Assembly (NCBI GenBank): GCA_003141835.1
Contig: PLNR01000004.1
Coordinates: forward strand, 13,943-77,942
Source of the DNA: Candidatus Omnitrophota bacterium
GTDB taxonomy: Bacteria; Omnitrophota; Gorgyraeia; Pluralincolimonadales; Pluralincolimonadaceae
Direction: 5' to 3'
Length of the DNA stretch: 64,000 bases
Every line of letters begins with the position of its first letter. Position 1 is the first letter of the stretch. This document shows positions 26,604-49,158 of this stretch, one piece after another. Under the pieces are notes generated by a model. That model saw nothing but the letters and a program-made list of their open reading frames with translations. It had not been told where the DNA came from and ran no database searches. Both the position numbers and the translations under genes were made by a program.

Positions 26604-26612
26604 GTTTATATC

Positions 26613-27215: not shown

Positions 27216-27218
27216 TCT

Positions 27219-27602: not shown

Positions 27603-27608
27603 CTCTTC

Positions 27609-27683: not shown

Positions 27684-27687
27684 TCCA

Positions 27688-27993
27688 TTATTTTGTTTCC
27701 TGGGTGGAAAGAACTCGCATAAGCGCTTCGAATCCTGCCTCGCCAACTTCCTTCCCGGCCTTAATGCTTTCATGATATATAAATATTGCCGAAATAAGAT
27801 ACAAACTCGCTATTAAAATTATGATTTTGGGCATTTTAGCATACCGAACCCAAAGATATGTTCCTAAAATACTAGAAAAAGAAAGAGCAACTATCATAGG
27901 AATTTGTCCAAACTCGAAATATGCATAAATTCCTAGGAAAAAATTTACTAAAACCGTACCAAGAATTATAGATAACCTTATTATCCAGATCAT
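27688..27993 (-). CDS. cassette-encoded hypothetical small membrane protein (3 TM)
   Basis: A 101-aa protein with three hydrophobic helices, and the first cassette after the putative attI side. Its start lies 20 nt from the ACCTAAC core at 28014-28020. Confidence 0.45.
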   Translation of the reverse strand: MIWIIRLSIILGTVLVNFFLGIYAYFEFGQIPMIVALSFSSILGTYLWVRYAKMPKIIILIASLYLISAIFIYHESIKAGKEVGEAGFEALMRVLSTQETK

Positions 27994-28013
27994 TTTCGTT
28001 ATTTAATTTTTCA

Positions 28014-28170
28014 ACCTAACATATAATATACGAATTCGTAGTTTATTGGTTGTCGTACTGCCCTGTTATCATTATAAGGCCCAAATTGCTTATTGCAAGC
28101 TCAAATAAATTCGCAAATGACCTGTAATGGCATGAAATACGAATTCGTAATTTGCGGGTTTTTGTACTTT
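28014..28170. promoter_or_regulatory. putative attI-like / cassette promoter region with duplicated perfect palindrome TACGAATTCGTA (28029-28040 and 28138-28149)
   Basis: The ACCTAAC core (GTTAGGT on the minus strand) is complementary to the R'' box of the first cassette's attC. Two identical 12-bp palindromes lie 109 bp apart in an AT-rich spacer. Confidence 0.35.
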
Positions 28171-34265: not shown

Positions 34266-37200
34266 CTAATCAATATATATTTTGATCTCTTCGATCTTTC
34301 TTTCCCTTATAAGGACCGAGTATGGCTCCGGGACGCTGCCGGTGAATTCCTTCACTGCGCCGCCTTCAAGCGTAAGCGCGTATTTTGCTTTTTTGCTGCC
34401 CCCGAATATGTCTTTCCTGCCCGGATTGATATAAGTCACCGGGATCTTTCCCAGGAAGATGAACTTCAGCGTGCCTTTCCCGGCGGTCTCTTTCCGCAAT
34501 TTTCCTTCGGGGGAATAATATTCCGCCTCGCGGTCTTTTTTGAGGAACATATCGCCCTTAAGCGCGGGGGAAAGGCTGAATACCAGCTTACCGTTTGCAT
34601 CGAGCGTGAACGGTTTCCCGCCGGTCATCATGATAAGCCACATATGGACGAACTCGGCGGTCGAGCCTGAGAGCCTCGCGTAGAACCCCTGCCCGTGGAC
34701 TTTCCTGTCAGGATGGACGCTGCTCGCGATGAAGGACGAGTTCTCGAAGATGCTCCTGCCGTAGACCTCGGGCTTCAGGAACGGGACAAGGACATTCTTC
34801 AGCCCCTTGTAATAATCACGGTATAGCCCGGCCTTCAATAATTCGAGCATATATTTATATTCCATGTGCAACCATATCGACTGGTTCTCGAGCCATCCGG
34901 GATTGAACGTCTTGATCCTTCCTATTTCATACGGCTCTTTTTCAAGCGATTCATTGGCCGAAAGCATCTTCAATTTTTTATCCACCAGGCCGCTCTTCAT
35001 GAGGTTGGAGTGCAGCTTCGCGGCGGCAGGCTTATCCTGTTCCGTCTTAAGCGCGTGGACTTGCGCCTCCAGGAACAACGGCAGCAGCTTCGAGTCGAAT
35101 CCCGTAACCCTGATGCAGGGCAGGCAGTTATGGTTTGCCTTCGTGAGCAGCTCGTATCCGGACGGAGTATTGATGAAATATCCGGAATAAAGGCCGGTCT
35201 TCTTGTCGAAACTTTTATCTATGGCAGCCTGCACCCTCTTGGCCGCGAGCGCGAGGTAACCTGATAATTCGTCCGCCGGGACCCGGACAAACCTGCCGGT
35301 TATCCCGTATTTCGTCTTTCTCCTGAAATCCTCTTTTATCGAGGTGAGCTTGTCCCATGCGCCGAAATCATCCAGCTTTCCGTCGAGATAGCCGCTTAAC
35401 ATGCTTTTTGAATCCCTGATCGCCCCGAAAACTTCCTCGGGGAGCTCGAGGGCATTTCCGGACAGGTTCTTCGAGACCATGCCTATCAGCCTCTTCAATT
35501 CAAAGGTCTCGTTCGAGGACGACCCGAAGAGCCCTGGCAGGCCGTTGAGCGCGTCGCACCAGTTCGGCTTATCAGACTCCATCTCGATGCCGCATCCGTC
35601 AGGCCCGATGGAATTTATCTTGTTGACCGCGATGACCAGGAGTTTCGTGATGAGATTTGTCTTATAGACATCACCTTTGCCGTTGGCCTTGCGGACGAGC
35701 GTCTTCTCCGACTTCCTGGAGGCGATCATCGTCCTCTTCCCTTCGTCAACCTTTACCGCGCCCAGCTGTACCGGCTTGCCGTCCCACAAGACGTATTTAT
35801 CTTCCCTCGGCAGCACGGTGTAGGGGTTGTCGTAGAACGTGAAATCCATGCGCCCGGAGAAGAGCTCTTCCCTCCTGTCCGGATAGACGGCAAGGAAACT
35901 GTCGATGAGGTCCATATTATAGAACCAGTGGTCGCTCCAGAAGCCTTCGCCATGCTGCGAATTCTGCTCGCCATCGGAACGCTCAAGTATCCTTGAGAGC
36001 GTCTCCTCATTGGATACGGAGGATTTTATCGAGTTGGAGCCTGCGAACTTGAAGATATCGCCTGGCGCAAAAGCATTTTTAAAAAATACTTCCATCCTAC
36101 GAGCAGCACCACTGCCAAAAAGGTTGACGAGAAGTTTTTTATCCCCCTTATATGTGAACGTTATCCCGCCCACGCCGTGCGGATTGAACCCGTCCATCTG
36201 CACCAGGTTCATGAAATTGGCTATATTGGCAATCCCGACGTCGGGATTGAAGAGCGTATCGTTGCGCCTGTTCTGGTTGACGTCCCTGTAACTGGAATCG
36301 CCCTGTGAATAGAAGGTCGGGGAGGTGTAGAACCGGTTATAATCCCTCTCCAGGTCCCCGTGTTTCCTGGAATAGACATAAAAGACCTTGCTCTTGTCCT
36401 TCGTTACCGTCAGCGGGAAACCTCCCCGCAATACATTATCGAGGAAATTTTGCGCGGAATACCTGTCAAACTTCTCGTCTTCGCTTATGACCAGCGAGGA
36501 TCCCATTATTGATTCGATGACGGCCTTGTTCTTCCTGAGTTGTATCTGGGCGAAATCGACGGTGAGGGCGCGTGCCACTTCTTTCGTTCCGGCCAGGGAA
36601 TCGAGGGTGCCGCAGACACTATATAGGGAGAGCGATGCCGAAGGTTTCAAGGTGACATCTTCATAGCACATGGCCGAAGAGAATTCCCCGCTCGCCAGTT
36701 CGCCTTTCATATCATAAACGAATTTCGACTTTACGTTAAAGAGCGAGGGAAGGATGAGGTCTTTCCTCATCCCGAATATCTGTGAAGCGTCGACGAGGGG
36801 GCGCCTTAATTCCGCCTTATTTCCCTCCACCCTGACGCAGGCGTAATAATGGCCCCTCTTTACCACGGCCACTTCCGGGCCGTCCGCATGGGTGGTCTTT
36901 ATATGGAAATAGGGTATCTTCTTTTCGAGGTTTTCCACAAAACCGAAGGACTTGGCGAGATATCTCATCTTCTTGAGGCCGGCATCGTCCATCCCGAAAG
37001 GGATAACCTGCGGCATGCCGTCGAGGAGTTCGATCTTGAGGGGTCGACGGGATATATTCTTTATTTCAACCTGCCTTATAAGGCCGGGGAACGGCTCCCG
37101 GACTACATTGCAATACCTGACCTCGACGCTTATGCCCAGCTTCTCGTGAACCTCCCTGAGGACCACGGAATAAGGGGTCACGGTCATCACCTGCGACGGG

Positions 37201-37529
37201 ATATACTTCTCTTCCTTCTCGTATATCCTGAACGGCTCATATAGAGTGAATCCGCCCTTGGCCATGACCTTGATGAAAGTCCTGAAACCCTGCGTCCCGA
37301 CAAGCTGGTAGGCGAAATTCGCGGGCAGGAATTCCATCATCGCGCGGTCCTTGCTCTCGATGCCGAGGCTGCAGACCGCCTGGTTCCTGTTCACGTAGAA
37401 GACCCACATCGGGATGCCGTCGACGCCGGCTATACCGGGCAGGAAACTCGAAAAGGGCTTGGAATAGTTGTAGTTCTCGATGACAAATTCGTTGTCACTG
37501 CCGATCTTGTAGGCAGCGGTTGTTTTCAC
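34266..37529 (-). CDS. GH94/GH36-superfamily glycoside phosphorylase-like protein (cellobiose/beta-glucan phosphorylase-like)
   Basis: A 1,087-aa protein. Its N-terminus (...PFSSFLPGIAGVDGIPMWVFYVNRNQ...) resembles GH94 N-terminal domains. The family call is from memory of the motif. Confidence 0.4.
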   Translation of the reverse strand: MKTTAAYKIGSDNEFVIENYNYSKPFSSFLPGIAGVDGIPMWVFYVNRNQAVCSLGIESKDRAMMEFLPANFAYQLVGTQGFRTFIKVMAKGGFTLYEPFRIYEKEEKYIPSQVMTVTPYSVVLREVHEKLGISVEVRYCNVVREPFPGLIRQVEIKNISRRPLKIELLDGMPQVIPFGMDDAGLKKMRYLAKSFGFVENLEKKIPYFHIKTTHADGPEVAVVKRGHYYACVRVEGNKAELRRPLVDASQIFGMRKDLILPSLFNVKSKFVYDMKGELASGEFSSAMCYEDVTLKPSASLSLYSVCGTLDSLAGTKEVARALTVDFAQIQLRKNKAVIESIMGSSLVISEDEKFDRYSAQNFLDNVLRGGFPLTVTKDKSKVFYVYSRKHGDLERDYNRFYTSPTFYSQGDSSYRDVNQNRRNDTLFNPDVGIANIANFMNLVQMDGFNPHGVGGITFTYKGDKKLLVNLFGSGAARRMEVFFKNAFAPGDIFKFAGSNSIKSSVSNEETLSRILERSDGEQNSQHGEGFWSDHWFYNMDLIDSFLAVYPDRREELFSGRMDFTFYDNPYTVLPREDKYVLWDGKPVQLGAVKVDEGKRTMIASRKSEKTLVRKANGKGDVYKTNLITKLLVIAVNKINSIGPDGCGIEMESDKPNWCDALNGLPGLFGSSSNETFELKRLIGMVSKNLSGNALELPEEVFGAIRDSKSMLSGYLDGKLDDFGAWDKLTSIKEDFRRKTKYGITGRFVRVPADELSGYLALAAKRVQAAIDKSFDKKTGLYSGYFINTPSGYELLTKANHNCLPCIRVTGFDSKLLPLFLEAQVHALKTEQDKPAAAKLHSNLMKSGLVDKKLKMLSANESLEKEPYEIGRIKTFNPGWLENQSIWLHMEYKYMLELLKAGLYRDYYKGLKNVLVPFLKPEVYGRSIFENSSFIASSVHPDRKVHGQGFYARLSGSTAEFVHMWLIMMTGGKPFTLDANGKLVFSLSPALKGDMFLKKDREAEYYSPEGKLRKETAGKGTLKFIFLGKIPVTYINPGRKDIFGGSKKAKYALTLEGGAVKEFTGSVPEPYSVLIRERKIEEIKIYID

Positions 37530-38491
37530 CGCGAACTCTTCACGTAAGGATACGGCGCGAACTTTATCTGCAGGTAAGATTTTTTAATTTCGGCGAAACC
37601 TGTGATGTCACCGGCAGGCGCGTTCGGGTTATAGCTTGAAAGCTCCGTCTCCTGGGTATTCTGGTCGGGGCTGGCCAGGTCATAATAATCCGGGTCTACC
37701 CCGTCTTCGGCGGTAGTGGCCTCGCCGCCGCCGCCGTGCCAGTCTTCCGCGGTCTTATATATCTCCCTGGCGTGTTCCTTATCTTCGAGGCCGCAGGCTA
37801 CGACGAATCTCCATATCTTCCCGGCGGGATTACCTATTATGCTTTGCGGCACCTGGATCTCGATGGCGCACATATTGGAATCTTTTATCTTGAAACCGGG
37901 CGTATCGGCCTTTTCGCCTACGGCTTTAGCGACAAGGTTTCCCTTACCGTCCCACATCCTTCCTTTATATGTGCCTGCTACCGATATCACGTAATCGGCC
38001 GCGAGCGCCTCAGAAACTCTCAGTTCACCGAACGTCCCTGTATCCGCGTTCAAGATACTCATATCGCCCTGCTGTATGACCCTCATGCCCCTCCTGCCTC
38101 CGCCTGCGCCATCCGTATCTATGGCAATGACGCGATAAGGGGACCACCAATCGCCTGGCATGGCAGTCTTGACCAGGAAATAGACGTTCCTGCTATCCCA
38201 CGTGACCCTGAACTCTTCCAGGTCGGCCGCCCTCGCGAAAGCCGGGGTCTTTGGATAAGTATATTTTCCGTTGCCGGTATCATCGCCGGATGCGTCTTTC
38301 CAGATGAATTCGCCTTTGCTTATTACACCGGCATCCGGCTTGGTGGGCGCGATCCCAACCCAATCCGCCACCGAACCGTCCACCCTTATCGAATGGCCGG
38401 ATAGGGGCCCGTACGTATCTCCCGCATCAGCGGGAGAGCAGAGCAGGAAAAAAGACGCCAGCGCCAGGTAAAAAACCGGCTCCTTCACCAT
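37526..38491 (-). CDS. secreted protein, paralog 1 of a ~300-aa beta-rich module (glucodextranase-domain-C-like?)
   Basis: Signal peptide MVKEPVFYLALASFFLLCSPADA (the track's 5' extension was trimmed). The conserved blocks GEFIWKDASGDDTGNGKYTYP, EFRVTWD..N.YFL and WW.PYR are present. It overlaps paralog 2 by 64 nt. Confidence 0.55.
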   Translation of the reverse strand: MVKEPVFYLALASFFLLCSPADAGDTYGPLSGHSIRVDGSVADWVGIAPTKPDAGVISKGEFIWKDASGDDTGNGKYTYPKTPAFARAADLEEFRVTWDSRNVYFLVKTAMPGDWWSPYRVIAIDTDGAGGGRRGMRVIQQGDMSILNADTGTFGELRVSEALAADYVISVAGTYKGRMWDGKGNLVAKAVGEKADTPGFKIKDSNMCAIEIQVPQSIIGNPAGKIWRFVVACGLEDKEHAREIYKTAEDWHGGGGEATTAEDGVDPDYYDLASPDQNTQETELSSYNPNAPAGDITGFAEIKKSYLQIKFAPYPYVKSSR

Positions 38492-39443
38492 CTTCACCCC
38501 TCCTTGACAATTTACCGGGTCCCTCATACCTGAAATCGATCTTCAGGAACGATTTCTCTATAACTGCAAATCCGTCGGGAAGCCCGAACGGCGCATTCGG
38601 GTTATAGCTACCAATCTCTTTTTCCTGCGTCTCTTTATCGGCGCCGGCCAGGTCATAGACATACGGATTGGAGTTGTTCGGCGCACCGCCTCCTCCGTTC
38701 CATTCGCTCGCGTCTACGTCTATCTTGCGCGCGACATCAAAATCCTGCTGGCCTACCGCGACGATGACATCCCATACCTGCCCGGCCGGACTGCCGCCTA
38801 TAAGTTCGAGCGGTATACCCACTTCGACCGAATTCCAATTGGTGCCTTCTACCTTGAAACCGGGAGTGTCCTTTTTGTCTCCCTCCTTGCGGGCGACAAG
38901 GCCGCCTTTCTCATCCCAGATCCTGCCCTTGTAGGCGGATGACGAAATAGCTATCACATATTGGCAGGCTAATTCGGGCGAGACTTTCAGGTTGGCGCAT
39001 ACGCCTTTATCGAAATTCGGTTCGTTTACATCGCCCTGGGCCAACACGGTCATTCCGCCGGCCGCACCTTCTTTATGTATCCCCACTATCCTTAAGGGGG
39101 TCCAGAACTCACCGGGCCGGTCGCATTTTATCATCAGGTACAGGTTCTTATCGTCATATGTAAGCCTGACCTCCCTTATATCGCATCCCCCTTTCAGGGC
39201 TTTGTTGAGGGGATAGGCATACTTCCCGTTTCCGGTGTCATCGCCTTTGGCGTCTTCCCAGATGTATTCCCCGTTGCTTATCGTCCAGGTGTTGGGCTCA
39301 GCGGGAGCTATCCCGGTCCAGTCGTTGGTCGCGCCGTCAACTTTGATCGGGTGGCCGGTAAAAGCGCCGGCCACCCGTTGATCCATAAAGATAATGCTCA
39401 TAGCTGCAAACATATAAAAAAGAAAGTGCACTTTCCTTTTCAT
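38427..39443 (-). CDS. secreted protein, paralog 2 of the same module
   Basis: A signal peptide is followed by GEYIWEDAKGDDTGNGKYAYP...LYLMIKCDRPGEFWTP. It has a C-terminal extension of about 30 aa relative to its paralogs. Confidence 0.55.
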   Translation of the reverse strand: MKRKVHFLFYMFAAMSIIFMDQRVAGAFTGHPIKVDGATNDWTGIAPAEPNTWTISNGEYIWEDAKGDDTGNGKYAYPLNKALKGGCDIREVRLTYDDKNLYLMIKCDRPGEFWTPLRIVGIHKEGAAGGMTVLAQGDVNEPNFDKGVCANLKVSPELACQYVIAISSSAYKGRIWDEKGGLVARKEGDKKDTPGFKVEGTNWNSVEVGIPLELIGGSPAGQVWDVIVAVGQQDFDVARKIDVDASEWNGGGGAPNNSNPYVYDLAGADKETQEKEIGSYNPNAPFGLPDGFAVIEKSFLKIDFRYEGPGKLSRRGEDGEGAGFLPGAGVFFPALLSR

Positions 39444-39475
39444 ATGCCGCCCTTTCTATTTAAAACTAACGGGAC

Positions 39476-40456
39476 TTATTTTGTTCCGAAATTAACGGTC
39501 AGGAACGACTTCTCTATCGTAGCGAACCCTTTCGGATCGCCCTCTTGCGCGTTAGGGTCATAGCTGCCGAGCTCTTTCTCCTGCGTAGCCTTGTCAGCGC
39601 CTGCCAGGTCATAGACGCTCGGGTTTTCCGCGTTCTCGGCCCCGCCGCCGCCGTGATACTGGCTCTGCTCGACCTCGACCCTACGGGCGACATCGTTATC
39701 CTGCTGGCCCGTCGCTACAATGAATTTCCATGTCTGTCCTGCAGGGCTTCCGCCGATAAGACTTAACGGGATAGCTATCTCGACAGAGTTCCAATTAAAG
39801 TCAGCGACCTTGAACCCGGGTGTATCATCCGGCTGCGCCTCATTACGGCCTATCATCTTGCCCTTCTCGTCCCATATGCGGCCCTTGTAAGTAGACGAAA
39901 CAGCTACGGCATACTGGCAGGCCAGCGCCGGGGCGAGCTTCAAATTGGCGAAAGTGCCCGAATCAAAATTAAATTCATCCTTATCACCCTGCGCCAGGAG
40001 CTGCGCGCCGCCGGCCGCGCCTTCCTTGTGGATCCCTATTATCTTGTATCCGGTCCACCAGTCTCCGGGCCTGTCGGTCTTTATCAGCATATAAAGGTTA
40101 TCTTTATCGAACGTCACCCTGAACTCTTTCAGGTCCCCGCCTTTCTTGAGCGCCTTGTCCAGGGGATAAGTATATTTTCCGTTACCGGTATCATCGCCGG
40201 AAGCATCCTTCCAGATATATTCGCCGTTGCTCACCGCGGCCGAGTTCTCCTGTTCCGGAGCTACGCCGGTCCAATCTTTTATATTCTTGTCGACCGCAAT
40301 AGTATGCCCGGTAACCGGGACCTTGCCCGCCTCATCTACCGTCAGGCCTTTTGCGACCGTAGCCGCGGGCGCGTTGGGATCATTAACTATGCCGTCGGCG
40401 AAACATATGCTTGAAAAGACCAACAGTACCGCTAAAAATAACGCCACTCTGCCCAT
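39476..40456 (-). CDS. secreted protein, paralog 3 of the same module
   Basis: Signal peptide MGRVALFLAVLLVFSSICFA, followed by GEYIWKDASGDDTGNGKYTYP...LYMLIKTDRPGDWWTG. Confidence 0.6.
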   Translation of the reverse strand: MGRVALFLAVLLVFSSICFADGIVNDPNAPAATVAKGLTVDEAGKVPVTGHTIAVDKNIKDWTGVAPEQENSAAVSNGEYIWKDASGDDTGNGKYTYPLDKALKKGGDLKEFRVTFDKDNLYMLIKTDRPGDWWTGYKIIGIHKEGAAGGAQLLAQGDKDEFNFDSGTFANLKLAPALACQYAVAVSSTYKGRIWDEKGKMIGRNEAQPDDTPGFKVADFNWNSVEIAIPLSLIGGSPAGQTWKFIVATGQQDNDVARRVEVEQSQYHGGGGAENAENPSVYDLAGADKATQEKELGSYDPNAQEGDPKGFATIEKSFLTVNFGTK

Positions 40457-40486
40457 TTTACCATACCTCCTTTTTCTTCGGTTAAA

Positions 40487-43400
40487 CTACTTCTTCCCTT
40501 GCGGGGAGTCAATATTTTCAAGGGACTTCGTCGTCGCCTCGTCGCTGAACGTAACGACCAGATACGACCTGTTTATAACCGCAAATGTATCGGGATCACC
40601 GGAGTCGCCGTCCTTCTTGTAGCTGTTCAACTCGTATTCCTGCGTCTTCTTATCCGGGCTTGCCAGATCATAAATAAAGGGGGCGTTTGCGTCGCCTCCT
40701 CCTCCGTGCCACTCGGACGCGTCCCTGTCTACTTTCCTTAAAACACCGTTATCCTGCAAGCCTGTTCCCACGATAAACCTCCAGGTCTGGCCGGCCGGGC
40801 TCCCGCCTATGAGCTTTAACGGGATCGCCACCTCGACCGAGTTCCAGCTGGCATCGTCGACCATAAATCCGGGTGTATCGTTACTATCGCCTTCTTTGCG
40901 GGCAATTAGGCTGCCTTTCGCGTCCCATATTCGGCCTTTGTAGGAATTGGATATCCCTATAACGTACTCACACGCCAGCTCCGGGGAGACCCTGATATTG
41001 CCGTAGCATCCGGTGTCCTGGTCCCCGTCGCCCTGCGCCAATACCTGCGTGCCGCCCTTGCCGCCTTTAGCGCCGTCCTGGTCTATGCCTATTAACCTGT
41101 AAGGCGTCCAGAAATCACCGGGCCGGTCGCATTTTATCATCAGGTAGAGGTTCTCGTTGTCCCATGTGACCCTGAACTCTTTCAGGTCTGCGCCTTTTGC
41201 GAGCGCCTTATTCGTAGGATAAACATAATGCCCGTTGCCTGTATCGTCACCGGAAGTGTCTTTCCAGATATACTCGCCGCCGCTGACCGTCGCGGTATTC
41301 TCCTGGTCCGGCGCGGCGCCTATCCAGTCCCTGGTGTTCTTGTCGACCTTTATCGTATGGCCCTTGACCGGCTCGGCTATCATTATCTTGACGGTATCGG
41401 CCGTTATCTTGACCGTATCAATCGTGACCCCGCCGCCCTTCTCGTCCTCCCTGACCGTCAGCGTATGGCCCGAGCCGGGCTTGTATCCTTCATCTATCTT
41501 CCACTCGGCCGTATAGAGGCCCATGTTCGGCGACATCTCCATGAACTTGCCGTTATCTATGGAATATTCGACCTTATCGATCTCCTTGTTCGCCCTCGGC
41601 TCGACCATGAGCGTCGCCATCTTGTATATGCTTGCGCCGTCGAACGGGAATACTATGGTGACTTTATTTACGACCCTCACATCTATGCTCTTTATATTTA
41701 TCTGGCCTATCTTATCGGTCGCCTTTACGTCTATCGTATGGTTTATCCCCGCCACTTTTGCCGTATCCCATTCTGCGGTATAGGTCCCTTCGGCAGACGG
41801 CGACATCGGCATCCAATCTCCCCGGTCCAGGGAATAATCAATCTTCGCGATATTCTCCTGCTTGTCCTCAGCGGCGATCTTTACGACGCCGCCCACCGAT
41901 GAGTTGGCCCCGGGCTCTATTATAGAAGGTTCAGGCAACGGGACGTTCGAGACCTCGCCCTCAAGGGTGATCGCAAATATGTTAAGCCTCTTGTCCGCGG
42001 GAAGGGTGACCGAAGAGAGGATCTTGCTCTTATCCGGCTCGAGCGTCTGCATGTAAAGTGCAACGCCCGGTTTCCTGTCTGCGGCAGTTTCATGATGGTG
42101 CGTCGTCATCACTGCGATCTCCTCGCCGTAGACGGGATTGCCGCCCCACCAGTCAGAAAATCCTGCGACGGCCTTCGTCGAGGTCCCGTCGGTATAATTT
42201 AACATGAACGTCTCTTTCGATCCGCCGTCATGCCTTGCGGCGAGGATATGCACTTTCGTATAATACCCGGGCTGGAAAGTTATTTTCTGCTTCCCGGCTT
42301 CCAATGTGTTCTTTCCTCCGTCGGCCTTGTCGCCGAATTTGAATTTTACCTTAGAGGTGCCGTTAAATATGAACTCGGAGTTCGAGTCCGGGAGTTCTTC
42401 GGCCGGAAAGTCATAACCTGTCCCGTCGTTGCGGTTGGTGTTCCAGGAGATCCAGTCGTGGTCTAACGGCAACTCCGCGTATTTTCCCGGCTTATTATCG
42501 ATTGTAATATTAGCCTTCGCCTCGGCGGCCTGGCCGCCCGTGTCGGTCGCAATAAATTTAATATCATGCGTAGAGCCGTCGGGAAGCTGCGAGGCATCCA
42601 ATACCGCCTGGTAGATCCCTTCGCCTATGCTTTCCATCTGCTTGGGCTCTCCCCCGTCGACGGTATAAGTGACCGAGGCGATGCCCCTGTCATCGGCCGC
42701 TATGGCCTTCAGCGGGACCTTGCCCATGACTGCGTCATTATCTTTAAGGCCGGCCGTAATAACCGGCGGTTCATCTATATTATCTATGTTTACCCGGACC
42801 GAATCGGAGACATAATAACCTTTCTTGGCTGTCACTCGCACGACAAGCGTATTCTTGCCTTCCGGCAGCTTTGCCGTATCCAATTCCATCTGGTAAAGGT
42901 CTTTCTTCTGGGAGAGCCGGCCGAAGGACTTTCCTTCGACGATCAGCTCCACCGCCTCGACTTTATCCTTCCCTCTTACCTCGGCGGATATAATGGCCTT
43001 CCCCTGCAAGGCCGCTTCTTCTTTAGGCTCTTTGAGCTCGACGGAGAGGTCGCCTAAAAGCGAGGCATATTGCCGCTGCAATTGGAAATATACCGGCTTC
43101 TTGAATTTCCTGTCGATCGTCATCGTGCCCATGATCTCGGGCTCGACTATCATCGTGTGCCAATCCGCTATAGTCCACCATGTCGCGCCGGCGACGAACG
43201 GGAATTCCTTGAAAGCGTTGAAAGTGTCTTTCGCAACCTCGACCTGCGCCGCCTCCTGAGGGGTGTCCCCGTAACGGCCCCAGACGCCGTACTCGGTGGA
43301 TATCACCGGCTTGTCAGGGAATGCCTCATGTGTCTTCTTTAGCGCTTCCTTCGTATCGGCAAAATACGAATTGCCGTAGAATATCCCGTAATAAGTGGTA

Positions 43401-45055
43401 AATCCTATGATATCGCATTGGTTCTGGGTGGCATCGGTGGGATCGCTTCCTGAAGCCGACTGGGCGACAAGCCTGGTCCCGTCTACTTTATAAGCATTCT
43501 CACGCAGGTCTTTGATGAAAGCCGCCCTCTCCGACTGCCAGCTGCATTCGTTGCACGCGCTCCAGACTATGATCGACGGCCTGTTGAAATCCCGGTATAT
43601 CATCTCGAGCCACATCTGCCTTCCGATACCACGGACGTTCTTCTGGATGAGGAACTCCGGCCCGGTGAACCAGAACATCGGGATCTCTTCCCATACGAGG
43701 AGCCCCATCCTGTCTGCGATCGTATATGTCTGCTGCTGGTTTGGATAATGGGCCGTCCTTACGAAATTCGCGTTGGCGTCTTTTATCGACTTGAAATCCG
43801 CGATGACCGCGGCCGGGCCGTAGACCAACGGGCCGGGCTCGCCGTAGAAAACTTCATGGCGGGCGATACCGCGGAGGAATGTCTCTTTTCCGTTCAGGAG
43901 CAGTTTCGCGTTGGCCTTATCGACGCTTATCTCCCTGGCGCCGAACTGCGTATAGAACTCGCCGAATTTCGCCTTTTTATCCCCGAGGTTCACCTGCAGC
44001 ACGTAAAGGTTCGGAGCCTCAGGCGACCAGGCTTTAAGCCCGCTCGATTTCAGCGAGAACCTGAACGCCTTAGCCTCGCCGGCCTTCAAGGATATCTGCC
44101 TTGAGGTCTCGCCCTGTACGGAAACTGTCCTGCCTGTCGCTATCTTCTTTGGCGACGCTTCCTCTAGATTATTTTCTTTTATATTGGCCTGGACGATCCT
44201 GAGGGCAAGTGACGTATTGACCTCGGCGTCACTCCGGTTATAGGCGGTAACGTCTACGGTCACTTCGACCGTCAGCTCGGAATCCTCTCCATTGACCGGC
44301 TTTGCTTTTACGTCGGCACGGACAACAGAGACCTGCGGCGATATCTCCAGATATACGTTCCTGGTTATCCCGCCGTAATTCCACCAGTCTCCGGTAACAT
44401 ACGGCACCGTATTATGGCTATTGGTCGCGAGCGCCTCCGGAGAGGTGTCGCCGTTGGGAAGCCACGGGATATTATCGACGCGGACGGCTATGACATTGTC
44501 CTGCCCGTAATTAAGGTACTGGCTTACATCGAAAGCGAACGGCGTATAGCCGCCTTCGTGGCAGCCTATCCATTTTCCGTTGATCCAGACATCCGTAAAA
44601 TAGTTCGCGGCCTCGAACATGAGTTTGACATATTTGCCGGCCGCATCAGCCGGGACCGTGAAATGCCGCCTGTACCATGCCCCGTCCATATACCTGTCAG
44701 GCGCAGGGTCCTCGACGCCCGGTATAGTCTTCTCTTTCCACACGCTGTCGTCGTAATCGGCCTTATACCTGCCCGCGCTTTCCTGCTCGAGGAGTTTTAA
44801 GGCCTCCGGCGTCCTACTGTAAAGAGTAAGCTTGTGGTCGACACCCTGCCGCTCGGACCTCCAGGCGCCGTTCAATTCTATGTACGGACGCTCCTGTCTC
44901 TCCCACGACGGGAAAGGTATCCCGTTCTGGAACGGCACGTTCAGGCCGTCTATCTCTTTCACTTCGAACGTCGGGGGCTGGGTCACGGGCTCCCCGAATG
45001 CGCACGGCAACAGGAATACTGCAATAATAATATAAAAAAGGGATTTTTTCAGCAT
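40487..45055 (-). CDS. GH2-family glycoside hydrolase (beta-mannosidase/beta-galactosidase-like) with Ig-like repeats and C-terminal copy of the ~300-aa paralog module
   Basis: A signal peptide is followed by the GH2 sugar-binding and TIM-barrel signatures (NGKWIGCHEGGYTPFAFDVS; RTAHYPN; VWSACNECSW). The C-terminal 330 aa (GEYIWKDTSGDDTGNGHYVYP...) are paralogous to the three genes downstream. Confidence 0.75.
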   Translation of the reverse strand: MLKKSLFYIIIAVFLLPCAFGEPVTQPPTFEVKEIDGLNVPFQNGIPFPSWERQERPYIELNGAWRSERQGVDHKLTLYSRTPEALKLLEQESAGRYKADYDDSVWKEKTIPGVEDPAPDRYMDGAWYRRHFTVPADAAGKYVKLMFEAANYFTDVWINGKWIGCHEGGYTPFAFDVSQYLNYGQDNVIAVRVDNIPWLPNGDTSPEALATNSHNTVPYVTGDWWNYGGITRNVYLEISPQVSVVRADVKAKPVNGEDSELTVEVTVDVTAYNRSDAEVNTSLALRIVQANIKENNLEEASPKKIATGRTVSVQGETSRQISLKAGEAKAFRFSLKSSGLKAWSPEAPNLYVLQVNLGDKKAKFGEFYTQFGAREISVDKANAKLLLNGKETFLRGIARHEVFYGEPGPLVYGPAAVIADFKSIKDANANFVRTAHYPNQQQTYTIADRMGLLVWEEIPMFWFTGPEFLIQKNVRGIGRQMWLEMIYRDFNRPSIIVWSACNECSWQSERAAFIKDLRENAYKVDGTRLVAQSASGSDPTDATQNQCDIIGFTTYYGIFYGNSYFADTKEALKKTHEAFPDKPVISTEYGVWGRYGDTPQEAAQVEVAKDTFNAFKEFPFVAGATWWTIADWHTMIVEPEIMGTMTIDRKFKKPVYFQLQRQYASLLGDLSVELKEPKEEAALQGKAIISAEVRGKDKVEAVELIVEGKSFGRLSQKKDLYQMELDTAKLPEGKNTLVVRVTAKKGYYVSDSVRVNIDNIDEPPVITAGLKDNDAVMGKVPLKAIAADDRGIASVTYTVDGGEPKQMESIGEGIYQAVLDASQLPDGSTHDIKFIATDTGGQAAEAKANITIDNKPGKYAELPLDHDWISWNTNRNDGTGYDFPAEELPDSNSEFIFNGTSKVKFKFGDKADGGKNTLEAGKQKITFQPGYYTKVHILAARHDGGSKETFMLNYTDGTSTKAVAGFSDWWGGNPVYGEEIAVMTTHHHETAADRKPGVALYMQTLEPDKSKILSSVTLPADKRLNIFAITLEGEVSNVPLPEPSIIEPGANSSVGGVVKIAAEDKQENIAKIDYSLDRGDWMPMSPSAEGTYTAEWDTAKVAGINHTIDVKATDKIGQINIKSIDVRVVNKVTIVFPFDGASIYKMATLMVEPRANKEIDKVEYSIDNGKFMEMSPNMGLYTAEWKIDEGYKPGSGHTLTVREDEKGGGVTIDTVKITADTVKIMIAEPVKGHTIKVDKNTRDWIGAAPDQENTATVSGGEYIWKDTSGDDTGNGHYVYPTNKALAKGADLKEFRVTWDNENLYLMIKCDRPGDFWTPYRLIGIDQDGAKGGKGGTQVLAQGDGDQDTGCYGNIRVSPELACEYVIGISNSYKGRIWDAKGSLIARKEGDSNDTPGFMVDDASWNSVEVAIPLKLIGGSPAGQTWRFIVGTGLQDNGVLRKVDRDASEWHGGGGDANAPFIYDLASPDKKTQEYELNSYKKDGDSGDPDTFAVINRSYLVVTFSDEATTKSLENIDSPQGKK

Positions 45056-46074
45056 GATTGTCTTATTATGAGCTCGGGTTTTAATACGGCTAACTGGGGT
45101 TCAAAATTCTCATCATTCATGGAGCGGACGGCAAGGTCAACCGCTTTCTCTCCCATCTCCTGCAGGGGCTGCCTTATCGTCGTCAGCGCGGGCTCCACAT
45201 AGGCGGCCTCAAGCGTATTATCGAATCCGATAAGCGCGATGTCCTTAGGTATAGATATGCCCTGCGCCTTCATCGCGCGCATAGCGCCGATAGCCATATA
45301 ATCGCTCGCGGCAAATATCGCCGTGGGCCGCTTCTTTAAGCCCAGGAGTTTCGGCGCTTCCCTCTCACCGCTCTCGAACGTGAAATCCCCCTGGACGATG
45401 AGGTCTCTATCCTGGTCAAATCCCATCTTCTTTGAGAGGGCCTTGAACGCTTGCAGCCTTTCCGGACCGTCGGATGAGTTCGGATGCCCGCTTATATACC
45501 CGACGCGCTTGTGGCCTCGTTCGGCCAGGTATTCCAGGGCCAGCCTGACGCCTTCGAAATTGTCGACGCAGACCGCGTTGACCTTTTCCTTACCTACATA
45601 TTTGGTCACGATAGAGAAGGCGATCCCGTTCTTCCTCAGGTCCTCGATATCCTTTGATATGTCCCTGGTATAATCGACATTCATTATAACCATTACGTCG
45701 ATAAGCCATTTACGGGATATCTGGTAATACGATTCGCCTTTCGTCTGGTCGAGGCTGAAGAACATGAGCGCCCTGTCATATTTCTTGCAGGCGTTCTGGA
45801 TACCCTCGATCATCATAAGGAAGTAAGTTATGGTGAAGAAATGCGGGTTCTCCGGGAAGACCACCCCCACGGTGGATGACCTCTTGCTGATGAGGCTGCG
45901 CGCGACCATATTGGGCATATAGCCCATCTCGTTGGAAATCTTTAAGATACGTTCACGCAGCTTAGGCGACACGTGTTCACGGTCGTTCATAACAAGAGAG
46001 ACCGTAGAGTGCGCGACTCCCGCCCGTTTTGCCACGTCTTTTATGGTTACGCTGGCTTTATCGAAACGTTTCAT
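45049..46074 (-). CDS. LacI-family transcriptional regulator
   Basis: An HTH (VTIKDVAKRAGVAHSTVSLVMN) and a periplasmic-binding-like effector domain are present. Confidence 0.9.
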   Translation of the reverse strand: MKRFDKASVTIKDVAKRAGVAHSTVSLVMNDREHVSPKLRERILKISNEMGYMPNMVARSLISKRSSTVGVVFPENPHFFTITYFLMMIEGIQNACKKYDRALMFFSLDQTKGESYYQISRKWLIDVMVIMNVDYTRDISKDIEDLRKNGIAFSIVTKYVGKEKVNAVCVDNFEGVRLALEYLAERGHKRVGYISGHPNSSDGPERLQAFKALSKKMGFDQDRDLIVQGDFTFESGEREAPKLLGLKKRPTAIFAASDYMAIGAMRAMKAQGISIPKDIALIGFDNTLEAAYVEPALTTIRQPLQEMGEKAVDLAVRSMNDENFEPQLAVLKPELIIRQSC

Positions 46075-46142: not shown

Positions 46143-48269
46143 TTATTTGGAGGGCTTGACCTTGCAGCCCAGGTCGGTAGTAAAGGTAGGTATGGCCAGC
46201 TCGAGATTCCCGTTCCGGCACTCGGCCTTGTCGCTCCGGACCACGCCGCAGGCTATGGTATCGAAATATTCGACGGTGTAATTCCCGTCCCTTAAACCGG
46301 TTATGACGACCCGGGGTATCTCTATCCAGGTATATCTGATGCCTTTCCTGCGGTTATCGACCGTATCATCCCGGTTCTTAAGCCAGATATATGCCGAATC
46401 TTCAGACCGGATGCCTATCACCTGGAGCGGGTTGGAATAGCCGCTCAGGCAGATGTTCCTCACCCTGAACCAATCGCCTCCGTCATTTGTTATCTTTATG
46501 CGGTGCTTCCCCCTGGAAACACCGATCTCAAAACTGTCGTCGAGATGCTTGTAGCTCGGCAGCGGCTTATAAATATGTTCCAGTACCATACGGTCATCAA
46601 GCCAAATGGCGGCTTTGGCCCCGCCTTCGGAGACCATATCGATATTAAGCGTGAATGAACCGTCCTCGGGATAATCGACGACGAATACCGGCGTGACCTT
46701 CATATCCTTGTGCGCCGCGCCCTGGAAAAATCTCGAGAGCTTATCGATACCGGAGACGCGCCCGTCGTTTCCCACGATGAGCTCCGAGGCTGACGAGGCC
46801 TGCCAGTCGAGGTAAGGCGTGAAAGTGAGCGTGTTATAGGTATCCTTGGGGCTTAATATCCTGTATTCGATATCCGTGAATTTTTTCCCGCGCCTGTCAT
46901 CGCCGGCGGTAAACCCTGAGACCGCCTTAAGCTCGTAGAAAAGGCCGCGCGGCTTGATAAAGCTGTCCCACCACCAATACATCGCCGTCCCGGCGGCAGG
47001 CGAGGCGGCCGACGACCAGAGCGCGTTATGGAACCTTATCCCCTGCGGGTCCTGCCTGCGCTCTACCGTCCCCTCTTTCGCGGTGCTGGCTACTTCGGAA
47101 ATAAGTACCGGCTTTCCGTACCTCTCCCTAAACTCCTTCGCGCAAAAGACTATCTCATCTATCATCACGTCGCTGTACTGGTGGATCTGCGTATAGCTGA
47201 TATACGGCGCGCGCCAAAGCCCGTAATCGAGCGGCTTTGAGCAACTCGTGGTGATCATGTGGCCCATCGGGTCCAGGCTTTTTATGTGATCCGCCATCTC
47301 TTTATGCCATTCCCCGGCGCGGGCATCGTCGAAATTGTCGGTCAGGTCGACTTCGTTCCAGAGCTCCCACGAGAATATCGCCGGGCTGTATCCCCACCTG
47401 GCGATTATATAACGGAGCCTGTTCTTGAAAAGCTTTTTCGCGGTCTCGTCCGTGAAGAAATCCGGCGGAGAGCCGCACGGCCCGCCGTTCTTCTTGTTAT
47501 AAGGGTTAGCGCCCCACTCCGAGTTGGCCGAACTGCTCAGTTGGCCGTGGATATTGACAGTAAGCTGGACCCGTACGCCGTATTTTTCGGCCATCCCGAG
47601 GATATTGTCTATCCTGTCCGCATTCCTGAGGTTATATACGCCAAGGCCGCCGTACGACTTATCCTTCTTCCATTCAAGCCCGAGGCCCCACGAACACAGC
47701 CACAGCCTCGTCCAGTTCCCGCCGTTGCTTCCTATCTTCTTATAATAGTCATCGTAATTATAAAGCACGTCTCCCCCGAGCCAGGCGACGTTCATGCCGA
47801 CCGGGAAGAAGAACCTGCCGTCCGAGGTCTCGAAATAACAGGGATCGATCTTGCTTACCCTGACCGGTCCTGCCGTCGTCGAAGGGAAGCATGTGAATCC
47901 GGCAACAGGAGACCTGGCTGAGGAGTGTTTGTCCGCGACTGTCGCGCAATAGGTCCAGTCCCCCTCTTCATCCGGGGAGAAGCGTATCTTCCAAACAGGC
48001 CTTTTCCCGGACGATGAATAAAGGAACCCGGGGACCTTTATCTCTTTGGATGACGGCGACTTGAATATTCCGGAGAGGTCTACCTGCGAAGGGTCAAAAG
48101 GATTTTCATATTCGGCGCTTAGGTCCACCGTGAGCTCGAAAAGACCGTATCTCCCGACCTTTTCCGAAGAAGCGGCGATTGAATTTATCGTGGCCGGCTT
48201 ATAGGCGAACGCTTCGGCGGAAATGAGTAGAAACGCGCAGGCTAGAAAGCCAAGGCAGCTTTTTTTCAT
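46143..48269 (-). CDS. secreted GH5-like glycoside hydrolase (DUF5060 N-domain + DUF4038 TIM-barrel type)
   Basis: A signal peptide, an Ig-like N-domain and a catalytic region with ...FSWELWNEVD (the NE acid/base motif) are present. It is paralogous to 55840..58707. Confidence 0.65.
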   Translation of the reverse strand: MKKSCLGFLACAFLLISAEAFAYKPATINSIAASSEKVGRYGLFELTVDLSAEYENPFDPSQVDLSGIFKSPSSKEIKVPGFLYSSSGKRPVWKIRFSPDEEGDWTYCATVADKHSSARSPVAGFTCFPSTTAGPVRVSKIDPCYFETSDGRFFFPVGMNVAWLGGDVLYNYDDYYKKIGSNGGNWTRLWLCSWGLGLEWKKDKSYGGLGVYNLRNADRIDNILGMAEKYGVRVQLTVNIHGQLSSSANSEWGANPYNKKNGGPCGSPPDFFTDETAKKLFKNRLRYIIARWGYSPAIFSWELWNEVDLTDNFDDARAGEWHKEMADHIKSLDPMGHMITTSCSKPLDYGLWRAPYISYTQIHQYSDVMIDEIVFCAKEFRERYGKPVLISEVASTAKEGTVERRQDPQGIRFHNALWSSAASPAAGTAMYWWWDSFIKPRGLFYELKAVSGFTAGDDRRGKKFTDIEYRILSPKDTYNTLTFTPYLDWQASSASELIVGNDGRVSGIDKLSRFFQGAAHKDMKVTPVFVVDYPEDGSFTLNIDMVSEGGAKAAIWLDDRMVLEHIYKPLPSYKHLDDSFEIGVSRGKHRIKITNDGGDWFRVRNICLSGYSNPLQVIGIRSEDSAYIWLKNRDDTVDNRRKGIRYTWIEIPRVVITGLRDGNYTVEYFDTIACGVVRSDKAECRNGNLELAIPTFTTDLGCKVKPSK

Positions 48270-48272
48270 ATG

Positions 48273-49157
48273 TCACGCTTTAAGGCCGGTAAGGGCTATG
48301 CCCTTTATGAAATACTTCTGGAAGGCTATAAAGACTATCAATACCGGGGCCGTGGCGACCACTGCGCCGGCCATGACCATCGCGAAGTTCGTCCCGAATT
48401 GCCCGTTCAGGACAGAGAGGGCAAGGGGTATCGTCCTCATTTTCGAGGAATATATTATGACGAGGGGCCAGACGAAATTATTCCATTGCGCCATGAAAGT
48501 GAATATCGCCAGCGAGGCGAGCGCCGGTTGTATCAGCGGAAGTATCACCCTGCGGTATATCGTGAACTCGGTGCAACCGTCTATCTTTGCCGCGTCTATG
48601 AGGTCATCTGGGATGTTCGAGATGAACTGCCTCATCAGGAATATCCCGAACGCGCCTGACATCGCCGGGATTATCAGCCCGTAAAACGAGTTGAGCCACC
48701 CGAACTTCTTCACTATCACGAAACTCGGTATCAGGTTGACCTGCCACGGGATCATCATCGAGCCGACGAGCAGGAGGAAGAGCTTGTCCCTGCCGAAGAA
48801 CCGGTGCTTGGCAAAGGCGTAGCCGGCCAGGGAACAGAAGAATATATTGGCCACCGTTATAGCGGTCGTGGCAAAAAGGCTGTTGAGGAAATACCTGCCC
48901 ATCGGTATTATCCTGAAGAGTTCGAGGTACGCCGCGATCGTCGGTTTGCGGATGAAGAAGCTCGGCGGATAGGTGTTTATCTCGTCGAGCGGCTTGAACG
49001 ACGTGGCTATCATCCAGACGAACGGCACGATCATTATGAACGAACCGGCTATCAGGAAAATATATATAAGGAGATTGGCGGTCCGCTGCTGCTTCTTCTT
49101 GCTGGTTACCCTGACCGCGCCCCTTCTTTCCAGCTCTTTTATCCCGTTCATATCCAT
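48273..49157 (-). CDS. carbohydrate ABC transporter permease (MalG-like)
   Basis: Six TM and an EAA-like loop (DAAKIDGCTEFTIYRRVILP). Confidence 0.85.
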   Translation of the reverse strand: MDMNGIKELERRGAVRVTSKKKQQRTANLLIYIFLIAGSFIMIVPFVWMIATSFKPLDEINTYPPSFFIRKPTIAAYLELFRIIPMGRYFLNSLFATTAITVANIFFCSLAGYAFAKHRFFGRDKLFLLLVGSMMIPWQVNLIPSFVIVKKFGWLNSFYGLIIPAMSGAFGIFLMRQFISNIPDDLIDAAKIDGCTEFTIYRRVILPLIQPALASLAIFTFMAQWNNFVWPLVIIYSSKMRTIPLALSVLNGQFGTNFAMVMAGAVVATAPVLIVFIAFQKYFIKGIALTGLKA

Positions 49158-49158
49158 G

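What the first reader, a model, noticed from the sequence alone, without database searches (positions are those of the whole stretch)
37526..45055. Four tandem paralogous copies of a ~300-aa secreted beta-rich module, one fused to a 1,522-aa GH2 enzyme
The C-terminal ~330 aa of the GH2 hydrolase (40487..45055) and the three downstream genes (39476..40456, 38427..39443, 37526..38491) share long conserved blocks (GHxIxVDxxxxDWxGxAP; GEYIWKDASGDDTGNGKYTYP; DLxEFRVTxDxxNLYxxIK; DRPGDxWTxY; GGSPAGQxW; W/YHGGGG). Each free-standing copy has its own signal peptide. The region thus records domain duplication and excision or fusion of what is probably a carbohydrate-binding or surface-anchoring module (reminiscent of glucodextranase C-terminal/S-layer-associated domains). 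Copies 1 and 2 overlap by 64 nt, and copy 2 has a unique ~30-aa tail, suggesting a recent indel or frameshift.
Basis: partly seen in the sequence, partly recalled or inferred. Interest (0 to 1): 0.6.

Follow-up and report, generated by a model that had tools for sequence, protein, structure and literature searches.

The report
Tandem glucodextranase-type modules beside a GH2
An uncultured Omnitrophota bacterium carries four old, still-functional copies of a known but poorly understood sugar-enzyme accessory domain, one fused to a GH2 glycosidase and three made as separate exported proteins; it is an ordinary, already-annotated domain family in a tidy conserved arrangement.

Summary
On the minus strand lie four paralogous ~280-aa modules: the C-terminus of a 1,522-aa GH2 (module 40547-41371) and three free-standing genes (39476-40456, 38427-39443, 37526-38491). 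They share 46-65% amino-acid identity (E 1e-95 to 1e-136). All four match Pfam PF09985 (Glucodextran_C, 74-84 bits against a cut-off of 22). A confident AlphaFold model (pLDDT 93.9) has one significant PDB match, Arthrobacter glucodextranase 1UG9. NCBI already names the relatives "glucodextranase DOMON-like domain-containing protein".

The cassette of GH2 plus 1-4 modules recurs in 26 of 30 related loci from Omnitrophota, Elusimicrobia, Auribacterota and Verrucomicrobia MAGs. The module is either fused to the GH2 or encoded just downstream. Positional paralogs form stable orthogroups under purifying selection (dN/dS 0.06-0.16).

Copy 2's odd tail and its 65-nt overlap with copy 1 are conserved in two other MAGs, so they are not a recent indel or an assembly error. 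In the closest relative, copy 2 is reduced to a 97-aa in-frame remnant.

The most likely role is a non-catalytic polysaccharide-binding accessory to the GH2/ABC-import/GH161 pathway. A scaffold role through protein-protein contacts is not excluded. No SLH domain and no heme ligands were found. I rate it a new member of a known kind, of low to moderate interest.

The parts
45049..46074 (-). LacI-family regulator, first gene of the operon; its stop codon overlaps the GH2 start
   Evidence: Pfam LacI plus Peripla_BP_3 and Peripla_BP_1. Conserved directly upstream of the GH2 in relatives.
40487..45055 (-). 1,522-aa exported GH2 glycosidase: signal peptide, GH2 N/Ig/TIM catalytic core, Ig (Big_7) domains, AziU2-like beta domain, two more Big_7 domains, and the C-terminal Glucodextran_C module
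   Evidence: Pfam Glyco_hydro_2_N, Glyco_hydro_2, Glyco_hydro_2_C, Big_7 x4 and Glucodextran_C. The nearest PDB relatives are GUS/GalA-type GH2 enzymes at E 4e-53. The NE motif at residue 502-503 (ACNEC) and the TEYG motif at residue 587-590 are present, and the NxK glucuronate motif is absent (motif roles are from my own knowledge of E. coli GUS).
41921..42493 (-). Unassigned ~190-aa all-beta domain inside the GH2 (residues ~855-1045), homologous to AziU2/Azi28
   Evidence: No Pfam hit. phmmer to PDB 7wuw/8gs1 gives E 1e-10, and a profile gives 3e-13. The AF2 model is low confidence (pLDDT 57).
40547..41371 (-). Module copy fused to the GH2 (residues 1229-1503)
   Evidence: tblastn to copy c3 gives 61% identity, E 6e-116. 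PF09985 E 9e-21.
39476..40456 (-). Free-standing module c3 (326 aa): signal peptide, a c3-type N-terminal extension (KGLTVDEAGKVPV), then the module; strong AGGAGG ribosome-binding site
   Evidence: PF09985 E 1.9e-22. AF2 pLDDT 93.9. Foldseek to 1UG9 E 1.6e-7. RBS.
38427..39443 (-). Free-standing module c2 (338 aa) with a 34-aa C-terminal tail (38430-38531) that reads through the ribosome-binding site and signal peptide of c1
   Evidence: PF09985 E 1.2e-20. dN/dS 0.156 against L005. The tail is conserved in L003 and L005.
37526..38491 (-). Free-standing module c1 (321 aa), the most divergent copy and the conserved 'last position' orthogroup; its stop overlaps the GTG start of GH161
   Evidence: PF09985 E 1.1e-23. 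Tree. dN/dS 0.11. Start and RBS.
34266..37529 (-). Cytoplasmic GH161-type glycan phosphorylase, last gene of the operon
   Evidence: phmmer to PDB 9qqk (GH161A) and 9h8v gives E 1.7e-190. No signal peptide. Conserved downstream of the modules in Omnitrophota loci.
46143..51332 (-). Upstream genes of the same glycan locus: a DUF5060/GH5-like exported hydrolase, two ABC permeases and a solute-binding protein
   Evidence: Pfam DUF5060 and SBP_bac_1. BPD_transp_1 in the called genes of L001. PDB 9gmj E 2e-78, plus weaker matches to GH5 mannanases.

Best explanation
The four modules are non-catalytic, Sec-exported beta-sandwich domains of the Glucodextran_C (DOMON-like) family. They act as polysaccharide-recognition accessories for a GH2-centred glycan-utilisation operon: LacI, GH2+module, c3, c2, c1, GH161.

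Proposed mechanism: the fused copy keeps the GH2 on its polymeric substrate. The free copies, co-translated from the same transcript, bind the same glycan or its fragments in the cell envelope. This retains the glycan near the enzyme and the ABC importer's solute-binding protein. Imported oligosaccharides are then phosphorolysed in the cytoplasm by GH161.

Shown here: domain identity, fold, export signals, the operon layout, conservation of the cassette, and purifying selection on every copy.
Inferred: that the ligand is a glycan, which glycan it is, and where in the envelope the proteins sit.
For: Domain identity: PF09985 scores 74-84 bits against a cut-off of 22 for all four copies. The AF2 model has pLDDT 93.9 and is mostly beta. 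Its only significant PDB match is glucodextranase 1UG9 (E 1.6e-7, probability 1.00, 282 columns). The DDxGxGxYxYP motif aligns to 1UG9 residues 781-813.

Functional precedent: removing this domain from the GH65 enzyme MdDDE raised Km about threefold for polymeric glucans but not for oligosaccharides (PMC10074034). The same paper notes the domain on several enzymes of one dextran locus.

Context: 26 of 30 related loci have a GH2 directly upstream of the module(s). In Elusimicrobia-type loci the modules are interleaved with the solute-binding protein and the ABC permeases. A distant module-only relative, P0130, is translationally coupled to a solute-binding protein gene and lies 4 kb from a GH2.

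Module as cargo: module-only relatives carry a T9SS sorting domain (TIGR04183 above cut-off for P0126 and P0130) or a C-terminal transmembrane helix (P0144). In those proteins the module is the displayed cargo, not the anchor.

Selection: all copies are under purifying selection, with dN/dS 0.06-0.16.

Operon: gaps between genes are 30-32 nt or the genes overlap, and there is no convincing minus-strand terminator between them.
Against: No member of PF09985 has been shown directly to bind sugar (PMC10074034).

The most conserved motif is shared with enzymes acting on unrelated glycans (dextran, pullulan, galactan), so it may be structural rather than ligand-specific.

A classical CBM proximity effect requires covalent linkage, yet orthologous cassettes have the module unlinked from a shorter GH2 (L007, L023, L025-27, L031, L032).

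The free copies have no anchor. In a diderm (BamD is present in a related Omnitrophota MAG) they would by default be periplasmic, where polymeric substrate may not reach.

Stable positional orthogroups suggest non-redundant roles, which simple shared glycan binding does not explain.
Confidence: 0.5

Rival explanations
1. Protein-protein scaffold. The free modules associate with each other and with the GH2's own C-terminal module. Together they build a hetero-oligomeric envelope complex that holds or positions the enzyme, and each positional paralog is a distinct subunit.
For: There is a Rosetta-stone pattern: the module is fused to the GH2 in some genomes and is a separate gene directly downstream of a shorter GH2 in others. 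Fused, middle and last copies form separate orthogroups that are kept across Omnitrophota, all under purifying selection. Tight or overlapping gene spacing suggests stoichiometric co-production. The c3-type copies carry a conserved N-terminal peptide (VKGLxxxEAGKxPV) that the other paralogs lack. The terminal beta-strand IxxSYxTVxF sits at the N-terminus in some relatives and at the C-terminus in others, so strand exchange between modules is conceivable.
Against: There is no direct evidence of any interaction, because no multimer prediction or model coordinates were available here. Copy number is flexible: it ranges from 1 to 4, c2 is deleted in L003, and the fused copy is absent in L007. That flexibility is unusual for obligate subunits. 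No anchoring signal exists on any copy, so a complex would still not be tethered.
Confidence: 0.25
2. Heme- or small-ligand-binding DOMON domains that act in extracytoplasmic electron transfer rather than glycan handling.
For: The family is classified in the DOMON-like superfamily (NCBI names; PMC10074034). Some DOMON domains bind heme (from my own knowledge).
Against: No His, Met or Cys is invariant. H51 is present in 89% and H268 in 76% of 71 sequences, and copy c2 has Asn at the second site. There are no redox partners in the operon, and the context is entirely glycan catabolism.
Confidence: 0.03
3. Redundant duplicates with no individual function, drifting toward loss.
For: c2 is the least constrained copy (dN/dS 0.156) and has been reduced to a 97-aa remnant in the closest relative L003. 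Copy number varies between genomes.
Against: dN/dS is 0.06-0.16 for every copy, with dS of 0.55-1.4. All reading frames are intact. The positional orthogroups are older than the divergence of the Omnitrophota lineages sampled.
Confidence: 0.05

Closest known systems
[quoted passage not shown]
   Same: Same Pfam family, with all four copies above the gathering score. It is the only significant fold match. The DDxGxGxYxYP motif is shared. One copy is likewise the C-terminal appendage of an exported glycoside hydrolase.
   Different: Only about 15% identity. The host enzyme is a GH2, not a GH15. Three copies are free-standing exported proteins. There is no preceding 'domain B'. The organism is a diderm Omnitrophota, not a Gram-positive actinobacterium, so the cell-wall-anchoring idea proposed for glucodextranase (my recollection of Mizuno et al. 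2004; the paper was not held) does not transfer directly.
[quoted passage not shown]
   Same: The same domain family recurs on several proteins of one glycan-utilisation locus that also encodes a solute-binding protein, a permease and a regulator. This is the only functional data for the family: truncation raises Km for polymer only.
   Different: There the domain is always fused and is often followed by a transmembrane anchor. The substrates are alpha-glucans. No free-standing copies are described.
CBM9 and the DOMON superfamily of beta-sandwich ligand-binding domains
   Same: The literature places Glucodextran_C in the DOMON-like superfamily with a CBM9-like sandwich. The N-terminal 'VDGxxxDW' start is reminiscent of it (my own knowledge).
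   Different: No CBM9 Pfam hit at E<=0.01. No CBM9 structure appears among the top 50 Foldseek PDB matches. No conserved heme ligands. The family is not recognised as a CBM family.
Surface glycan-binding proteins (SusE/SusF-like SGBPs) of Bacteroidota polysaccharide utilisation loci
   Same: They work alike in concept: non-catalytic beta-sandwich proteins encoded in tandem next to the glycosidases and the importer of one locus (from my own knowledge).
   Different: Unrelated fold family. SGBPs are lipoproteins tied to SusC/D transport. Here there is no lipobox and the importer is an ABC system.

Membership tests
Pfam PF09985 Glucodextran_C (NCBI: glucodextranase DOMON-like domain) | Profile HMM score above the curated gathering threshold (22 bits) | tested here: met
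   Scores are 84.4, 74.5, 80.3 and 74.9 bits for c1, c2, c3 and the GH2 C-terminus.
Pfam PF09985 Glucodextran_C (NCBI: glucodextranase DOMON-like domain) | Fold of the glucodextranase C-terminal domain | tested here: met
Pfam PF09985 Glucodextran_C (NCBI: glucodextranase DOMON-like domain) | C-terminal appendage of an exported glycoside hydrolase | tested here: met
   This is met for the GH2-fused copy. The three free-standing copies depart from this architecture, but free-standing members are common in the family.
Pfam PF09985 Glucodextran_C (NCBI: glucodextranase DOMON-like domain) | Binding of polysaccharide or cell-wall polymer | not testable with these tools
   Only indirect kinetic evidence exists, for one family member.
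SLH (S-layer homology) domain | PF00395 SLH motif | tested here: not met
   None of the four proteins has an SLH hit at E<=0.01. The 'SLH-like' wording in the Pfam title is not reflected in the sequence.
CBM9 | CBM9 profile match or closest fold match | tested here: not met
Heme-binding DOMON | Conserved axial ligands (His/Met, or Lys) | tested here: not met
   No invariant His, Met or Cys in 71 sequences, and c2 lacks the HGGGG histidine.
Glycoside hydrolase family 2 (the host enzyme) | GH2 N-terminal sugar-binding domain, Ig domain and TIM-barrel domain, with the catalytic acid/base (NE) and nucleophile (EYG) glutamates | tested here: met
   PF02837, PF00703 and PF02836 are all above cut-off. 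ACNEC sits at residue 500 and STEYG at residue 586. No NCBIfam equivalog reaches its cut-off, so specificity is unknown. The GUS NxK motif is absent.
Anchored surface proteins (lipoprotein, T9SS, PEP-CTERM, transmembrane) | Lipobox or a C-terminal sorting signal | tested here: not met
   There is no lipobox and no sorting-domain hit in the window copies. Distant module-only relatives do carry T9SS tails or a transmembrane helix.

The most novel reading that the evidence does not exclude
The free-standing modules are obligate, non-covalent partners of the GH2. Fused, middle and last paralogs would each occupy a fixed place in a hetero-oligomeric envelope machine that captures glycan and passes it to the ABC importer's binding protein. 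That would be a glycan-capture complex for Omnitrophota, Elusimicrobia and Verrucomicrobia-type diderms, analogous to but unrelated to the Bacteroidota Sus 'utilisome'. The movable terminal beta-strand would be the assembly element.
Probability: 0.15. Interest if true: 0.55.

Novelty: new member of a known kind. Interest (0 to 1): 0.25.

Why it matters
Glucodextran_C is a widespread appendage of exported glycosidases, and its function has never been shown directly. The cassette found here is a natural experiment. The same module occurs fused, unfused and in 1-4 conserved paralogs next to one GH2 across several uncultured phyla. Recombinant free-standing copies are small, lack catalytic baggage and are predicted with high confidence. 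That makes them convenient material to test whether the family is a genuine carbohydrate-binding module, and so a candidate for a new CBM family, or instead an assembly domain. Beyond that, the locus adds a piece to how Omnitrophota, often described as host-dependent nanobacteria, may use polysaccharides. It does not overturn anything known.

Tried and rejected
Things that led nowhere:
- Model coordinates are not exposed to scripts. I could not map conserved residues onto the surface or look for a binding cleft or interface.
- phmmer of one copy against PDB sequences found nothing. A profile gave only a weak motif-level hit to 1UG9.
- The literature search for S-layer and glucodextranase returned nothing relevant. 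The original glucodextranase structure paper is not held.
- For the AziU2-like domain, the word-indexed homolog search gave only 2 proteins. The resulting AF2 model was too poor (pLDDT 57) to use in a fold search. AziU2 literature in the library was uninformative.
- The promoter and terminator scan was at chance level and adds nothing beyond the short gene spacing.

Readings I rejected:
- S-layer or SLH anchoring: no SLH hit.
- Heme-binding DOMON: no conserved ligands.
- Decaying pseudogenes: low dN/dS.
- Assembly artefact for the c2 tail: it is conserved in other MAGs.
- The longer ATG 38527 start for c1: it has no ribosome-binding site, and it would place 12 residues ahead of an otherwise normal signal peptide.
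Full report
**1. What is there**

The minus strand of window 34.2-46.1 kb carries a tightly packed gene string:
- a LacI-family regulator (45049-46074);
- a 1,522-aa GH2 (40487-45055);
- three ~320-340-aa genes, c3 (39476-40456), c2 (38427-39443) and c1 (37526-38491);
- a 1,087-aa protein (34266-37529).

Gaps between these genes are 30-32 nt or negative. The LacI stop overlaps the GH2 start. c2 overlaps c1 by 65 nt. The c1 stop overlaps the GTG start of the last gene. No convincing minus-strand terminator lies between them. I read this as one operon.

**2.

- BLASTP among c1, c2, c3 and the last ~340 residues of the GH2 gives 46-65% identity over 276-308 residues, with E 7e-95 to 3e-136.
- tblastn finds exactly four copies in the window.
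- DNA identity between copies is only 66-76%, so the duplications are old.
- The GH2 and each free copy begin with a typical Sec signal (basic N-terminus, hydrophobic core, small-x-small site) and have no lipobox. The last gene of the operon has none.
- The proper start of c1 is ATG 38491, behind an AGGAGG. The longer ORF start at 38527 has no ribosome-binding site.

**3. What the module is**

- All four copies match Pfam PF09985, Glucodextran_C, at 74-84 bits against a gathering score of 22.
- An AlphaFold2 model of c3, built on 71 homologs, is confident (mean pLDDT 93.9, pTM 0.88) and almost entirely beta.
- Foldseek against the PDB returns one significant match, Arthrobacter globiformis glucodextranase 1UG9 (E 1.6e-7, probability 1.00, 282 aligned columns). 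The next hit is at E 2e-3 with TM 0.17.
- A profile of the family aligns its most conserved motif, DDTGNGxYTYP, to glucodextranase residues 781-813.
- NCBI already names homologs 'glucodextranase DOMON-like domain-containing protein'.
- There is no SLH hit, so the 'S-layer' part of the analogy has no sequence support.
- No His, Met or Cys is invariant, so a heme-binding DOMON is unlikely.

**4. Source and spread**

The window is part of a 95-kb contig of an ENA metagenome assembly. Its nearest genome match is a Candidatus Omnitrophica MAG, L003, with c3 91% identical. I fetched thirty related loci from Omnitrophota, Elusimicrobia, Auribacterota and Verrucomicrobia MAGs, plus some MAGs labelled Planctomycetia or Clostridia.
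- In 26 of the 30, a GH2 ortholog lies directly upstream of the module(s).
- Two loci are cut by a contig end.
- Two loci (L029, L030) have a lone module elsewhere.

Two architectures occur:
- a ~1,500-aa GH2 with the module fused, followed by 1-3 free copies;
- a ~1,050-aa GH2 without the module, followed directly by one or two free, signal-peptide-bearing copies (L007, L023, L025-27, L031, L032).

A neighbour-joining tree of 70+ modules separates the fused, middle and last copies into orthogroups that persist across Omnitrophota. A second, independent triplication is seen in the Elusimicrobia-type loci.

In Nei-Gojobori comparisons with L003, L004 and L005, every window copy is under purifying selection: dN/dS 0.06-0.16 at dS 0.55-1.4. 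c2 is the least constrained, at 0.156.

Scanning 1.84 billion representative proteins with the family profile finds 671 clusters at E<=1e-3. Only about seven of these are full-length close relatives (E<1e-86), and they are either ~310-aa free proteins or ~1,490-aa GH2 fusions.

**5. Copy 2's tail**

c2 ends with 34 extra residues (RYEGPGKLSRRGEDGEGAGFLPGAGVFFPALLSR). These read through the ribosome-binding site and signal peptide of c1 in another frame.
- The same tail is present in L003, with 27 of 34 residues identical.
- It begins identically in L005 before that contig ends.
- The exact 338-aa product was called on four contigs.

It is therefore neither an assembly error in this window nor recent. 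A stop-codon loss in the common ancestor of these three genomes is the simplest origin.

In L003 the c2 gene itself has suffered a 723-nt in-frame deletion between 'VAGA' at the end of the signal peptide and 'LAGAD' near the C-terminus. This leaves a 97-aa remnant. Copy number is thus still changing: L007 lacks the fused copy, and other lineages keep one, two, three or four copies.

**6. Context**

- The last gene of the operon is a GH161-type phosphorylase (E 1.7e-190 to PDB 9qqk and 9h8v) with no signal peptide.
- The GH2 core is nearest to GUS/GalA-type GH2 enzymes. It has the NE and EYG catalytic motifs but not the NxK glucuronate motif. No NCBIfam equivalog reaches its cut-off, so its specificity is open.
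- Upstream lie a DUF5060/GH5-like hydrolase, an ABC importer with its solute-binding protein, a PEP-CTERM protein with a mannanase-type binding domain, a second DUF5060 protein, a ROK kinase, a GH130 and two GH113 enzymes. This is a beta-mannan-flavoured glycan region.
- In Elusimicrobia-type loci the order is GH2+module, module, solute-binding protein, module, permease, permease, GH42-like.
- More distant module-only relatives carry a T9SS sorting domain (TIGR04183 above cut-off for P0126 and P0130) or a C-terminal transmembrane helix. One of them is translationally coupled to a solute-binding protein gene and sits 4 kb from a GH2. In those lineages the module is the displayed cargo rather than the anchor.

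**7. How it most likely works**

The only functional data on the family come from the GH65 enzyme MdDDE. Deleting the domain raised Km about threefold for polymeric glucans and left oligosaccharide kinetics unchanged. The authors stress that sugar binding has not been shown directly and that the family is not a recognised CBM (PMC10074034).

Combining that with the context above, my best explanation (confidence 0.5) is that these are non-catalytic polysaccharide-recognition modules. One tethers the GH2 to its polymer. The free ones hold glycan or fragments in the envelope, near the enzyme and the importer's binding protein. GH161 finishes the job in the cytoplasm.

Shown:
- domain identity and fold;
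- export signals;
- operon layout;
- cassette conservation;
- purifying selection.

Inferred:
- that the ligand is a glycan, and which glycan;
- where the proteins are located.

The main rival (confidence 0.25) is that the modules bind each other and the GH2, forming a hetero-oligomeric assembly. Evidence pointing that way:
- the fused/unfused Rosetta-stone pattern;
- the stable positional orthogroups;
- the c3-specific N-terminal peptide.

The flexible copy number argues against obligate subunits.

Heme-binding (0.03) and functionless duplicates (0.05) are disfavoured.

**8. Comparison and novelty**

This is a member of a known, already auto-annotated domain family. Three things are not in the literature I could search, where only three papers mention the family at all:
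- its fusion to a GH2;
- the conserved tandem of free-standing paralogs;
- the fused/unfused alternation.

I rate it a new member of a known kind, with interest 0.25. Its practical value is as a clean system to settle whether Glucodextran_C is a true carbohydrate-binding module.

**9. Side observations**

- The ~190-aa unassigned domain inside the GH2 is homologous to AziU2/Azi28 of azinomycin biosynthesis (E 1e-10 to 3e-13).
- A low-GC island at 25.8-28.15 kb looks like an integron-type cassette array with attC-like sites and no adjacent integrase.

Noticed in passing
window 41921-42493 (-), GH2 residues ~855-1045: An all-beta domain with no Pfam match is significantly similar to AziU2/Azi28 (PDB 7wuw, 8gs1), proteins of azinomycin aziridine biosynthesis. 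phmmer gives E 1e-10 and a profile gives 3e-13. It carries an NYTDGTST...SDW...VTLP motif and is conserved in GH2 orthologs. Finding it inside an exported glycosidase is unexpected. The AF2 model was too poor (pLDDT 57) for a fold search.
   Followed up: partly
L003 3556-3849 (Omnitrophica E3_bin-509), equivalent to window 38427-39443: In the closest relative, copy c2 is reduced to a 97-aa in-frame remnant: the signal peptide is joined to the last ~70 residues, including the unusual tail. The cause is a 723-nt deletion between 'VAGA' and 'LAGAD' microhomology.
   Followed up: yes
window ~25780-28150: A low-GC island (0.38 against ~0.54 around it) holds 4-5 small minus-strand ORFs (59-167 aa). 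They are separated by repeat pairs (27-nt D2 and 38-nt D1; 3-4 copies) whose arms are imperfectly complementary and are flanked by ..ATAAC / GTTA(T/G)G cores. These look like attC-type sites of an integron cassette array with no integrase next to it. One site folds well as ssDNA (z -3.8) and two fold weakly. There is no Rfam hit.
   Followed up: partly
P0125, P0127, P0129, P0132, P0134 compared with P0126, P0128, P0130 and the window copies: The beta-strand motif IxxSY(V/L)xVxF is the last strand of the module in the window subfamily. In several distant relatives that lack it at the C-terminus, it sits before the module at the N-terminus. This looks like a circular-permutation relationship.
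   Followed up: no
L043 1509-2999 and neighbours; P0126, P0130, P0144: Distant module-only proteins carry a T9SS type A sorting domain or a C-terminal transmembrane helix. P0130's gene overlaps the stop of a solute-binding-protein gene and lies upstream of a beta-helix protein and a 1,022-aa GH2.
   Followed up: partly
window 40310-40351 (-), c3 residues 36-49: c3-type orthologs share an N-terminal extension between the signal peptide and the module (VKGL(T/S)xxEAGKxPV). The other paralogs lack it. It is predicted as a short helix.
   Followed up: no
window 54885-63957 (-): Further glycan genes lie upstream: a PEP-CTERM protein with a mannanase-type galactose-binding-like domain, a second DUF5060 protein (955 aa), a ROK kinase, a GH130 mannooligosaccharide-phosphorylase-type protein and two GH113 enzymes. 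Two ORFs (51307-52356 and 52357-54828) have no Pfam match.
   Followed up: partly
L007 6868-11928: In this Omnitrophota MAG the GH2 ends after the AziU2-like domain and lacks the last two Ig domains and the fused module. The c3-type and c1-type free copies remain. The fused copy has apparently been lost.
   Followed up: partly
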